Source: a virus
Taxonomy: Duplodnaviria > Heunggongvirae > Uroviricota > Caudoviricetes
DNA: 7,566 nucleotides
Virus record (IMG/VR): IMGVR_UViG_2698536559_000017
Direction: 5' to 3' (one strand)
The notes under the pieces were generated by a model, which saw only the letters and a program-made list of their open reading frames with translations, was not told the DNA's origin and searched no databases. Shown in pieces: positions 1,082 to 3,195 of this stretch (positions within the stretch are counted from its first letter, which is position 1; each line of letters opens with the position of its first letter). A program made the position numbers and the translations under genes.

Positions 1082-1381
1082 ATGAGAACGTATTTATCTG
1101 GCTTGACTGCCAGCGGTTATGCACACCCCCAAATTATCCCCGGCGCTATTTATCTGGATAAGAACGGTAACAGAGTAACGGTAAAAGAACTGATGTTTGA
1201 CCGTGTGTATTTTATCCGTGATGGCTATTCATTTCTTAGTTCGCTGAACGTGGAGATCTTTATTAGCAGATTCAGTCGGGAAATCCCGCTTTCCAGAAAT
1301 AACCATGTGTCATGTATGGATGTTGATAAAAAACTACAGGAACTAAAAAACATGATTGCCGCGTGGAGAGAGCAGAAATGA
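1082..1381 (+). CDS. hypothetical protein (99 aa), translationally coupled to the downstream replication gene
   Basis: ATG 1082 lies 6 nt after the previous stop, with GGGGA upstream. Its stop TGA 1379..1381 overlaps ATG 1378 of the alpha-like gene (ATGA). No recognisable motif. Confidence 0.5.
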   Translation: MRTYLSGLTASGYAHPQIIPGAIYLDKNGNRVTVKELMFDRVYFIRDGYSFLSSLNVEIFISRFSREIPLSRNNHVSCMDVDKKLQELKNMIAAWREQK

Positions 1382-3195
1382 AAAAAGCGCCAAATTTAAA
1401 ACACCAGCCGCGTGACAAAATGACGGAAGTCATCATTTTTGCGGGTAGTGATGCGTGGGCACATGCGAAACAGTGGCAGGAACAGGACGGGCGACTGGCT
1501 GGCGATAACGTGCCACCTGTCTGGCTTGGAGAGCAACAACTTGCCGAACTGGACAACCTGCAAATCGTACCGGACGGACGCTATCGCGTGCGTCTCTATC
1601 AGGCGGGGTTATTGCGTCCGGGGCTTGTTAATACCATCGGGCAGAAACTGGCAGTGGCAGGTGTCAGGGATGCTGATTATTACCCTGAAGGAATGCACAG
1701 CCAGAAACGGGAGAACTGGCGCGAATATCTGGAACGTGAACGGGCAGAGCAGGCGGAAAAGAAAAAGGTAGTTGAACTGCCTGTAAAGAAAAAAGAGCGG
1801 GTAAAAGACGATAACGCTTCATCACTGGCGCTTAACCAGATGGGAGCAAGTCAACGCGGCGAAGTTCTCCTGGCACATTATGGCGGTGAACTGGCGATTC
1901 ATGCTGACTCTGACACTGTTCACCATTACAACGGCGTTGTATGGGAGCCAGTACAGGATAAAGAATTACAGCGAGCTATGGCACAGATTTTCATTGATGC
2001 GGAGATCAGCTATTCGCAGAACGCCATCAAATCGGCGGTCGATACAATGAAGTTAAGTTTGCCTGTAATGGGGAATACCGCCCGTAACCTGATTGGATTC
2101 AGTAACGGTGTTTTTGATACCCGGACAGGCGATTTTCGGGAGCACGACAAAAACGACTGGTTGTTAATTGCCAGTGAATTACCTTTCAGCCCACCAGCAG
2201 AGGGGGAAACGCTGGCAACACATGCGCCGAATTTCTGGAAGTGGTTACGCCGTTCGGTGGCTGAGAATGACCGTAAAGCGGATCGCGTACTGGCGGCGTT
2301 ATTCATGGTGCTGGCGAACCGGTACGACTGGCAGTTATTTCTTGAGGTAACGGGGCCGGGTGGAAGCGGTAAAAGCGTAATGGCAGAGATTTGCACCATG
2401 CTGGCGGGTAAGGCCAACACGGTATCGGCAAGCATGAAGGCGCTGGAAGATGCCAGAGAACGCGCGTTAGTGGTTGGCTTTTCGCTGATTATCATGCCGG
2501 ATATGACCCGCTACGCTGGTGATGGCGCAGGAATTAAGGCCATTACAGGCGGCGACAAGGTGGCAATCGACCCGAAGCATAAAGCCCCCTACTCAACACG
2601 CATTCAGGCGGTCGTGCTGGCGGTGAACAATAACGCCATGTCATTCAGTGACCGCAGCGGTGGGATATCACGTCGTCGGGTAATATTCAATTTTTCGGAA
2701 GTTGTACCGGAGAACGAACGTGACCCTATGCTGGCTGAAAAAATAGAAGGAGAGCTGGCGGTAGTGATTCGCCACCTGCTTACACGCTTTTCTGACCAGG
2801 ACGAAGCTAAACGCCTGCTATATGAGCAGCAGAAATCAGAAGAAGCCCTGGTGATAAAACGCGAGGGCGATTCGCTGGTGGACTTCTGCGGCTATCTCAT
2901 GTCGTCGGTAATGTGTGATGGCCTGTTAGTGGGTAATGCTGAAATTATTCCGTTCAGCCCGCGCAGGTATCTCTATCACGCCTATCTGGCGTATATGAGA
3001 GCACACGGATTCGGTAAGCCCGTAACACTGACTCGCTTCGGTAAGGATATGCCAGGGGCAATGGCGGAATACGGCAGGGAGTATATGAAACGGAAAACGA
3101 AGCACGGTTTGCGCTCAAACGTGACACTGACGGAGGAATCAGAAGACTGGATGCCATCATGTGTACCGGTCACTAATGACGATAGCAAAAATTAA
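1378..3195 (+). CDS. P4 alpha-like replication protein: N-terminal domain of unclear type, D5_N-like region, SF3/P4-family primase C-terminal NTPase domain, C-terminal putative iteron-binding region
   Basis: Open frame of 610 codons (track start GTG 1363; ATG 1378 is coupled to the upstream stop). Walker A GPGGSGKSV sits mid-protein, with a Walker B-like hydrophobic stretch ending in D (VVGFSLIIMPD). A D5_N-like motif (GFSNGVFDTRTGDF) precedes the NTPase. The gene is followed directly by TGTTCACC iterons, the alpha-binding repeat type of P4 ori/crr. Confidence 0.85.
   Translation: MKKAPNLKHQPRDKMTEVIIFAGSDAWAHAKQWQEQDGRLAGDNVPPVWLGEQQLAELDNLQIVPDGRYRVRLYQAGLLRPGLVNTIGQKLAVAGVRDADYYPEGMHSQKRENWREYLERERAEQAEKKKVVELPVKKKERVKDDNASSLALNQMGASQRGEVLLAHYGGELAIHADSDTVHHYNGVVWEPVQDKELQRAMAQIFIDAEISYSQNAIKSAVDTMKLSLPVMGNTARNLIGFSNGVFDTRTGDFREHDKNDWLLIASELPFSPPAEGETLATHAPNFWKWLRRSVAENDRKADRVLAALFMVLANRYDWQLFLEVTGPGGSGKSVMAEICTMLAGKANTVSASMKALEDARERALVVGFSLIIMPDMTRYAGDGAGIKAITGGDKVAIDPKHKAPYSTRIQAVVLAVNNNAMSFSDRSGGISRRRVIFNFSEVVPENERDPMLAEKIEGELAVVIRHLLTRFSDQDEAKRLLYEQQKSEEALVIKREGDSLVDFCGYLMSSVMCDGLLVGNAEIIPFSPRRYLYHAYLAYMRAHGFGKPVTLTRFGKDMPGAMAEYGREYMKRKTKHGLRSNVTLTEESEDWMPSCVPVTNDDSKN

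What the first reader, a model, noticed from the sequence alone, without database searches (positions are those of the whole stretch)
1378..2000. Replication protein is shorter than P4 alpha and has an N-terminal domain of unclear type
At 605-610 aa the protein is shorter than P4 alpha as I recall it (about 777 aa). The first ~190 residues (MTEVIIFAGSDAWAHAKQW ... Lys/Glu-rich linker KKKVVELPVKKKERVKDD) do not show primase motifs I can recognise. The element may depend on a host or helper primase, or may use an unrecognised priming domain.
Basis: inference. Interest (0 to 1): 0.45.

Follow-up and report, generated by a model that had tools for sequence, protein, structure and literature searches.

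The report
Satellite replication helicase lacking a primase
The gene labelled "DNA primase" in this E. coli phage-satellite island is a P4-alpha-like origin-binding helicase. P4's primase module is replaced by a small, uncharacterised domain with a primase-like fold but no catalytic residues, so the element probably uses the host's primase.

Summary
The gene at 1378-3195 (+) encodes 605 aa, against 777 aa for P4 alpha. Residues 145-595 are 51% identical to P4 alpha 320-771 (D5_N, SF3 ATPase, origin-binding winged helix). Residues 1-144 replace P4's 319-aa zinc-ribbon and Toprim primase region and show no similarity to it.

No family member has the Toprim Glu or DxD, and the window copy has no cysteine. 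The family is small (135 clusters among 1.84 billion proteins, in Enterobacterales and Pasteurellaceae). The domain is always N-terminal and is fused to four different helicase types. The islands examined carry no separate primase gene.

Eight P4-type iterons (TGTTCACC) lie directly 3' of the gene. The 48%-identical EcCICFT073 Pri-Rep, with its ori, replicates a plasmid without helper phage.

Best reading: a primase-less initiator helicase with a non-catalytic Toprim-like N-domain, primed by host DnaG. This is a new variant of a known kind, of moderate interest.

The parts
1378..3195 (+). Replication initiator-helicase gene ('Pri-Rep', annotated 'DNA primase family protein'), 605 aa plus stop. 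An alternative in-frame GTG lies at 1363.
   Evidence: ORF list. ATGA overlap with the upstream gene and a GGAGAG Shine-Dalgarno-like sequence. 51% identity to P4 alpha 320-771. 48% full-length identity to EcCICFT073 Pri-Rep.
1378..1761 (+). N-terminal domain, aa 1-128. It consists of a conserved N-terminal peptide (K-x-A-P-x-h-K-x-Q) and a four-strand alpha/beta, Toprim-like fold that lacks catalytic acidic residues.
1762..1860 (+). Lys/Glu-rich flexible linker, aa 129-161. Homology to P4 alpha resumes at aa 145 (nt 1810).
   Evidence: pLDDT below 50 for aa 130-150 in the full-length model. BLASTP boundary.
1861..2250 (+). D5_N domain, aa 162-291.
   Evidence: Pfam PF08706, E=9.9e-14 (renumbered from the 610-aa frame).
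2350..2676 (+). SF3 AAA+ ATPase/helicase core (DUF5906), aa 325-433. Walker A GPGGSGKS is at aa 326-333.
   Evidence: Pfam PF19263, E=1.1e-10. Walker A located. Match to the SaPI5 PriRep structure 7ola.
2863..3150 (+). C-terminal origin-binding winged-helix domain (Pox_D5), aa 496-591.
   Evidence: Pfam PF03288, E=6.7e-13. phmmer hit to 1ka8, the P4 alpha origin-binding domain, E=1e-24.
3210..3430 (.). Putative replication origin. Eight exact TGTTCACC iterons in both orientations, plus degenerate copies, sit in an AT-rich region immediately 3' of the gene.
   Evidence: 11 exact matches in the window against 0.34 expected, 8 of them in this stretch. Repeats and inverted repeats. Same octamer as the annotated P4 'ori type 1 repeat'. 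GC about 0.41.
1082..1381 (+). Upstream DUF4222 gene, translationally coupled to the helicase gene. It keeps this position even where the helicase type differs.
   Evidence: Pfam PF13973. Synteny in L001, L002, L006 and L007.
4121..4564 (+). Element-encoded SSB with an acidic C-terminal tail (...DFDDDLPF). It may link the element to host replisome proteins.
   Evidence: Pfam PF00436. Sequence.

Best explanation
The gene encodes the replication initiator and replicative helicase of a PICI/cfPICI-type phage satellite. It is a P4-alpha-like protein that has no primase.

Proposed mechanism:
- The C-terminal winged-helix domain binds the TGTTCACC iterons of the origin, which lies directly downstream of the gene.
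- The D5_N and SF3 AAA+ part assembles on the origin, melts it and unwinds the DNA.
- RNA primers are not made by this protein. They are supplied by the host primase DnaG, possibly helped by the element's own SSB.
- The first 128 residues form an independent globular domain, tethered by a linker that is predicted to be disordered. The fold is closest to the Toprim core of DnaG-type primases, but it lacks the zinc ribbon, the catalytic Glu and the DxD metal site.
- That domain most likely has a non-catalytic role: helping to load or position the helicase on DNA, or docking a host replisome protein. This resembles the primase-dead N-terminal domain of metazoan Twinkle.

Shown here: the domain architecture, the absence of known primase signatures, the fold prediction, the iteron array and the family distribution. 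Inferred: the helicase and origin-binding activities (from 51% identity to P4 alpha), priming by the host, and the role of the N-domain. Whether the domain descends from a real Toprim remains uncertain.
For: - Architecture and P4 homology. P4 alpha's own Zn ribbon and Toprim are detected by the same Pfam scan that finds nothing in residues 1-141 of this protein.
- N-domain model: pLDDT 91.9. The same fold appears in the full-length model, and the linker aa 130-150 has pLDDT below 50.
- Catalytic residues: the 33 aligned family sequences have A/V/I-G at the end of strand 1 and Q/R-x-G after strand 3, with no Glu or DxD. The window copy has no Cys.
- Family: only 135 clusters among 1.84 billion proteins. 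The domain is N-terminal in every full-length hit, and is fused to D5_N/SF3, DUF927, RepA (AAA_25) or VapE helicases.
- No primase gene was recognised in this window or in the contexts from E. coli, Klebsiella, Haemophilus and Avibacterium.
- Origin: 8 exact P4-type iterons at 3210-3430, against 0.34 expected in the whole window.
- Function of a homologue: EcCICFT073 Pri-Rep shares the N-domain and is 48% identical overall. Its rep-ori maintains a plasmid in DH5alpha without phage (PMC6092414).
- Precedents: the primase-dead Twinkle NTD binds DNA and supports helicase and replisome activity (PMC2241861, PMC9860392). The T7 primase domain is needed for helicase loading (PMC9198812). 'Primase C_term' helicases are often mislabelled as primases (PMC10061031).
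Against: - Foldseek finds nothing significant in the PDB. In the viral library its one significant hit is an uncharacterised 112-aa phage protein, and its TOPRIM-primase hits are weak.
- hhalign against P4-Toprim and DnaG-Toprim profiles gives under 1% probability. The positive control (P4 Toprim against DnaG Toprim) also failed, at 1.6%, so that test has little power.
- Three acidic positions (E17, D/E104, E112) are conserved across the family. I could not inspect model coordinates to see whether they cluster.
- No experiment shows DnaG dependence.
- It is unknown how DnaG would be recruited to an SF3 helicase, since DnaG normally docks on DnaB.
- The N-domain family is mildly acidic (median pI 5.7), which does not favour a simple DNA-binding role.
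Confidence: 0.6

Rival explanations
1. The N-terminal domain is a new, unrecognised kind of primase, or a highly divergent active Toprim. It would use other residues (for example E17, D/E104, E112) to make primers, so the protein is a true primase-helicase, as annotated.
For: The domain sits exactly where Toprim or AEP primase domains sit in P4 alpha and in other D5, DUF927, VapE and RepA helicase fusions. Three acidic positions are conserved across the family. The islands carry no other primase. EcCICFT073 rep-ori is self-sufficient in E. coli (PMC6092414).
Against: There is no zinc-binding domain and no RNA-polymerase N-subdomain: only 17 residues precede strand 1. Every family member lacks the Toprim Glu and DxD. 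At 128 residues the domain is far smaller than any known primase core. There is no profile hit to any primase family. E17 lies at the start of strand 1, the opposite edge of a parallel sheet from the usual active-site end (inference).
Confidence: 0.07
2. The N-domain is unrelated to priming or helicase loading. It is a portable regulatory or protein-interaction module of the satellite's conserved left arm. It might be a target of helper-phage or satellite regulators, or a means of interfering with helper or host replication. It stays attached to whichever helicase is recombined in downstream.
For: The same N-domain, with the upstream DUF4222 gene, is joined to four unrelated helicase classes. 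This suggests a recombination breakpoint in the linker and a function independent of the helicase. The domain is mildly acidic and flexibly tethered.
Against: It is always fused in frame to the replicative helicase, and no full-length stand-alone copy appeared among the 135 clusters (the short hits look like fragments). Its closest structural neighbours are replication primase cores. In Haemophilus and Klebsiella islands the upstream genes differ while the fusion persists.
Confidence: 0.2
3. The gene is a decayed or truncated P4 alpha pseudogene in a defective island, and the N-terminal region is a meaningless remnant.
For: It is 172 aa shorter than P4 alpha. Many database entries are partial or chimeric fragments.
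Against: The N-domain is conserved from Escherichia to Pasteurellaceae at 23-77% identity, with invariant positions. It folds confidently. It is present in 1,856 of 5,426 complete E. coli genomes. The homologue in EcCICFT073 is needed for transfer and drives replication (PMC6092414).
Confidence: 0.02

Closest known systems
Bacteriophage P4 gp alpha (primase, helicase and origin-binding protein; NP_042036; TIGR01613 'phage/plasmid primase, P4 family')
   Same: 51% identity over D5_N, the SF3 ATPase and the C-terminal winged-helix origin-binding domain. Same iteron octamer, TGTTCACC. Both are satellite elements of enterobacteria.
   Different: P4 alpha residues 1-319 (Zn ribbon, primase core and Toprim with the EGYATA Glu and a DRD motif) are replaced here by an unrelated-in-sequence 128-aa domain plus linker. 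The TIGR01613 score is 97.8, below the curated cut-off of 108.7. The origin lies directly 3' of the gene, PICI-style, rather than as P4's separate ori and crr.
EcCICFT073 Pri-Rep and the other E. coli PICI/cfPICI 'Pri-Rep' alleles (Fillol-Salom et al. 2018, PMC6092414)
   Same: Same N-domain, 48% overall identity, and the same synteny: int, alpA, Icd-like, DUF4222, Pri-Rep, ori, SSB, PerC. The rep-ori unit has been shown to be functional.
   Different: The iterons differ (TGTCTACC/GGTAGACA in CFT073), and so does the C-terminal domain. In the papers I searched, the protein is called a primase-replicase with no domain-level analysis.
Metazoan Twinkle and T7 gp4 N-terminal primase domains
   Different: Those helicases are SF4 (DnaB-like), not SF3. 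Twinkle's NTD is clearly homologous to gp4 in sequence, whereas this domain has no detectable sequence similarity to any Toprim.
SaPI Rep / SaPI5 PriRep and SCCmec Cch helicases
   Same: They are self-loading initiator helicases of the D5_N/SF3 or DUF927 type in small integrative elements, with the origin next to the gene.
   Different: In those elements a real primase (an AEP Pri, or the CcPol-MP pair) is fused to the helicase or encoded just upstream (PMC10061031). No such gene is present here.

Membership tests
P4 alpha-type primase-helicase (TIGR01613 / P4 gp alpha) | D5_N, SF3 ATPase and C-terminal origin-binding winged helix | tested here: met
   Pfam D5_N, DUF5906 and Pox_D5. 1ka8 match, E=1e-24. 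51% identity to P4 alpha 320-771.
P4 alpha-type primase-helicase (TIGR01613 / P4 gp alpha) | NCBIfam TIGR01613 score above the curated cut-off | tested here: not met
   97.8 bits against a cut-off of 108.7, although E=5e-28.
P4 alpha-type primase-helicase (TIGR01613 / P4 gp alpha) | N-terminal zinc ribbon (PF08273) | tested here: not met
   No Pfam hit. Residues 1-161 contain no cysteine.
P4 alpha-type primase-helicase (TIGR01613 / P4 gp alpha) | Toprim primase domain with the EGYATA Glu and a DxD motif | tested here: not met
   No Toprim Pfam hit at E<=10. No BLASTP similarity to P4 1-319. No Glu or DxD at the corresponding strand ends in 33 aligned family sequences.
P4 alpha-type primase-helicase (TIGR01613 / P4 gp alpha) | Origin built of TGTTCACC type-1 iterons | tested here: met
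   8 exact copies at 3210-3430, against 0.34 expected in the window. P4 annotation and sequence.
Toprim domain (DnaG-type primase catalytic core) | Four-strand alpha/beta Toprim fold | tested here: inconclusive
Toprim domain (DnaG-type primase catalytic core) | Conserved Glu after strand 1 and DxD after strand 3 | tested here: not met
   These positions hold A/V/I-G and (Y/F/C/I)-(Q/R/K)-x-G in all 33 sequences.
Toprim domain (DnaG-type primase catalytic core) | Sequence-profile similarity to Toprim families | tested here: inconclusive
   hhalign gives 0.05-0.35% probability against P4-Toprim and DnaG-Toprim profiles. The positive control between the two true Toprim profiles reached only 1.6%, so the test lacks power. 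Pfam and PDB HMM searches were negative.
Archaeo-eukaryotic primase / Prim-Pol | AEP catalytic fold and motifs (DxD, sxH, hD) or a Pfam AEP/Prim-Pol match | tested here: not met
Gram-negative PICI/cfPICI Pri-Rep replication module | Position in an int-alpA-...-rep-ori satellite island, and homology to a characterised PICI Rep | tested here: met
   Synteny in E. coli islands, some with capsid and terS genes. 48% identity to EcCICFT073 Pri-Rep. An iteron origin lies 3' of the gene.
Gram-negative PICI/cfPICI Pri-Rep replication module | Autonomous rep-ori replication | not testable with these tools
   Shown for the EcCICFT073 homologue only (PMC6092414).

The most novel reading that the evidence does not exclude
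The 128-aa N-domain is a portable, catalytically dead Toprim-like adaptor. Satellites of Enterobacterales and Pasteurellaceae attach it to any of four non-DnaB helicase classes (SF3/D5, DUF927, VapE, RepA-like). It would recruit the host primase DnaG, or another host replisome part, to a foreign helicase. That would explain how these very small elements replicate autonomously without a primase of their own.
Probability: 0.25. Interest if true: 0.7.

Novelty: new variant of a known kind. Interest (0 to 1): 0.5.

Why it matters
About a third of complete E. coli genomes carry this domain, up to six copies each, in genes routinely annotated 'DNA primase' and called 'Pri-Rep' in the satellite literature. 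If the protein has no primase, three things follow:
- The annotation and the name are misleading.
- PICI and cfPICI replication must draw on the host priming machinery by a route that is not yet understood, because DnaG normally needs DnaB.
- The N-domain is a candidate for that link, and a defined target for experiments.

The case would also be a bacterial mobile-element parallel to the loss of primase activity in metazoan Twinkle. The domain has no Pfam family and falls in a PHROG of unknown function.

Tried and rejected
- Pfam, NCBIfam and PHROG scans of the N-terminal region found only phrog_864, labelled 'DNA primase', and phrog_2850, function unknown.
- PDB sequence searches with the single protein and with the family profile found nothing for the N-domain.
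- The Foldseek search of afdb50 was unavailable on the server.
- Foldseek against the PDB gave no significant hit. The best was gamma-delta resolvase at E=0.19.
- Foldseek against BFVD gave one uncharacterised 112-aa phage protein (E=3.5e-4) and weak TOPRIM-primase hits.
- hhalign of the N-domain family against a P4-alpha Toprim profile and a DnaG Toprim profile was not significant. The positive control between the two Toprim profiles also failed, so the result is uninformative rather than negative.
- Literature searches for 'EGYATA' and 'TGTTCACC' returned nothing useful. Statements about P4 alpha's primase motif and its independence from host DnaG therefore rest on my own knowledge of Strack et al. 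1992 and Ziegelin et al. 1993/1995.
- The EcCIMP1 paper's 'aids helper replication' concerns excisionase cross-talk, not the primase gene.
- I considered DUF4222 as a hidden partner primase and rejected it. It is only 99 aa, it also occurs in lambdoid prophages away from replication genes, and it is absent upstream in the Haemophilus and Klebsiella islands.
- I considered a pseudogene and rejected it (see rivals).
- I could not inspect model coordinates, so the spatial relation of E17, D/E104 and E112 is untested.
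Full report
**What is in the window.** The window is the replication and accessory region of an E. coli chromosomal phage satellite of the PICI/cfPICI type. Its DNA matches about 1,900 complete E. coli genomes, almost always on the chromosome. In annotated relatives the gene order is integrase, AlpA-like HTH, YlcI/YnfO, Icd-like, small ORFs, DUF4222, 'DNA primase family protein', a small ORF, SSB, ProQ/FinO and PerC. Depending on the island, capsid and small-terminase genes follow. The closest match in the phage collection is the 16.5-kb induced element vB_KppS-Ant, which carries capsid, portal and terminase genes and has a 75%-identical protein. EcCICFT073, the prototype Gram-negative PICI, has the same synteny.

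**Checking the observation.** The ORF runs from GTG 1363 or ATG 1378 to 3195. ATG 1378 is the likely start. It follows GGAGAG, it overlaps the stop codon of the DUF4222 gene (ATGA), and homologues begin MK-x-AP. This gives 605 aa, against 777 aa for P4 alpha.

BLASTP shows 51% identity between residues 145-595 and P4 alpha 320-771, and nothing for residues 1-144. Pfam finds D5_N (aa 162-291), the SF3 ATPase DUF5906 (325-433) and Pox_D5 (496-591). The last of these matches the solved P4 origin-binding domain 1ka8 at E=1e-24.

The same Pfam scan finds Zn_Ribbon_Prim (30-66) and Toprim_3 (210-299) in P4 alpha, but nothing in residues 1-141 of this protein at E<=10.

**The N-terminal domain.** An alignment of 16 relatives gave an AlphaFold model of residues 1-128 with mean pLDDT 91.9 and pTM 0.87. 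Its elements are strand 18-22, helix 26-40, strand 48-50, helix 52-56, strand 70-75, helix 81-93, strand 98-102 and helix 115-127. In a full-length model (pLDDT 85) the domain keeps this structure. Residues 130-150, the Lys/Glu-rich stretch, have pLDDT 33-36, which indicates a flexible tether.

Foldseek finds nothing significant in the PDB. In the viral library it finds one uncharacterised 112-aa phage protein and weak TOPRIM-primase hits. Profile-profile comparison with P4-Toprim and DnaG-Toprim alignments is not significant, but the positive control also failed, so that test is uninformative. I call the fold Toprim-like and leave its ancestry open.

**Catalytic residues.** A Toprim primase needs a Glu after strand 1, a DxD after strand 3, a zinc-binding domain and an N-terminal RNA-polymerase subdomain. 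This is established knowledge (Aravind et al. 1998). In P4 alpha the Glu lies in the motif EGYATA, and the DxD is DRD.

In this protein only 17 residues precede strand 1, and residues 1-161 contain no cysteine. Strand 1 ends IIFAG and strand 3 ends RLYQAG. Across 33 sequences, down to 23% identity, these positions are A/V/I-G and (Y/F/C/I)-(Q/R/K)-x-G. They are never acidic.

The positions conserved across the family are A4, P5, Q10, E17, G23, A26, W27, P47, L55, G77, A92, D/E104, E112, Y117, R120 and R122. There is no AEP signature, fold or hit either. A known type of primase activity is therefore very unlikely.

**Distribution and context.** An exhaustive HMM search of 1.84 billion representative proteins found only 135 clusters at E<=0.001, and in every full-length hit the domain is at the N-terminus. 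The named members examined are from Escherichia, Citrobacter, Klebsiella and Serratia, and from the Pasteurellaceae genera Haemophilus, Mannheimia, Avibacterium, Pasteurella, Testudinibacter and Lonepinella.

The domain is fused to four different replicative-helicase modules:
- D5_N / SF3 / Pox_D5
- DUF927
- RepA-like AAA_25
- VapE

In other elements these are the helicase classes that usually carry or accompany a primase (PMC10061031). In the contexts examined, each island has an AlpA-type regulator, an integrase in most cases, and the fused helicase, but no recognisable primase gene. Those contexts are this window, three other E. coli islands, and one island each from Klebsiella, Haemophilus and Avibacterium. 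In E. coli the RepA-type fusion keeps the same upstream DUF4222 gene. This points to module exchange at the linker. The N-domain coding sequence occurs in 1,856 of 5,426 complete E. coli genomes.

**Origin.** The AT-rich 220 bp directly after the stop codon contains eight exact copies of TGTTCACC in both orientations, plus degenerate copies, against 0.34 expected in the whole window. This octamer is the annotated 'ori type 1 repeat' of P4. That fits the close similarity of the C-terminal DNA-binding domains. EcCICFT073 has a different C-terminal domain and a different iteron (TGTCTACC) in the same position.

**How it most likely works.** The steps below are inferred from homology, not shown here.
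- The C-terminal domain binds the iterons.
- The SF3 hexamer assembles, melts the AT-rich spacer and unwinds the DNA.
- Primers come from the host.

The helper-independent replication of an EcCICFT073 rep-ori plasmid in DH5alpha (PMC6092414) shows that this protein family, with the same N-domain, needs no phage-encoded primase. Lambdoid helpers rely on host DnaB and DnaG in any case (my own knowledge). The element's SSB ends in DFDDDLPF, resembling the tail through which E. coli SSB binds DnaG and other replisome proteins (my own knowledge). It could help bring in the host machinery.

The N-domain is small, mildly acidic across the family, flexibly tethered and independent of helicase type. 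I think it most likely serves as a non-catalytic loader or adaptor. The precedents are the primase-dead N-terminal domain of Twinkle (PMC2241861, PMC9860392) and the loading role of the T7 gp4 primase domain (PMC9198812).

**Rivals.**
- A cryptic new primase is not excluded, because three acidic residues are conserved and I could not inspect their geometry. The domain's size and the missing zinc and RNA-polymerase modules argue strongly against it.
- The domain could be a regulatory or interference module unrelated to replication.
- A pseudogene is ruled out by conservation and by the functional homologue.

**Novelty and verdict.** I found no description of this domain. It has no Pfam family. 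Its PHROG is 'unknown function'. The satellite papers I read call the protein a primase-replicase without domain analysis. This is a new variant of a known kind: a P4-alpha / PICI Rep initiator-helicase in which the primase module is replaced by an acid-less, Toprim-like domain. Interest is moderate. The finding corrects a widespread annotation, and it poses a concrete, testable question about how primase-less satellites are primed.

Noticed in passing
window 3210-3430: The putative origin uses exactly the P4 type-1 iteron TGTTCACC. EcCICFT073 has TGTCTACC/GGTAGACA at the same position (L006:12000-12240). Iteron and C-terminal domain appear to change together between Pri-Rep alleles.
   Followed up: partly
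window 3512-3703 and 7337-7434: There is a 95-bp perfect-register tandem duplication (2.0 copies, 98% matches). A diverged third copy lies near the 3' end. These copies lie in small ORFs (3621-3782 and 7312-7566) that share the motif GEGYAxAHPELISAFMTTAA. The duplication appears to disrupt or extend the small gene that precedes SSB in relatives.
   Followed up: partly
window 4121-4564: The satellite encodes its own SSB, with a canonical acidic tail (DFDDDLPF). SSB follows Pri-Rep in this window, in EcCICFT073 and in strain MSHS 133. It is absent from the RepA-type island (L007) and from vB_KppS-Ant.
   Followed up: partly
window 4621-5414: A ProQ/FinO-family gene overlaps a PerC-family regulator gene. 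PerC-like genes of PICIs have been linked to LEE regulation (PMC11773190).
   Followed up: no
window 5796-6656 and 6653-7315: Two adjacent, overlapping ORFs without Pfam hits are paralogues: 31% identity over about 98 aa, E=3e-13.
   Followed up: partly
proteins P0003, P0005, P0054, P0065, P0099: Database proteins join a near-identical N-domain (up to 99% identity) directly to SSB, PerC, DUF4222 or a capsid domain. These look like deletion derivatives or mis-assemblies of such islands. The N-domain may be a frequent recombination endpoint.
   Followed up: no
L001 (E. coli EC12) 8570-25700: In strain EC12 the related island lies between nfeF and a tRNA-Ile gene, only a few kb from the host's rpoD-dnaG-rpsU operon. 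This proximity to the host primase gene is probably coincidental.
   Followed up: no
window 1917-1924 and 2622-2629: Two further exact TGTTCACC copies lie inside the helicase gene itself. They may be chance, or weak autoregulatory sites.
   Followed up: no
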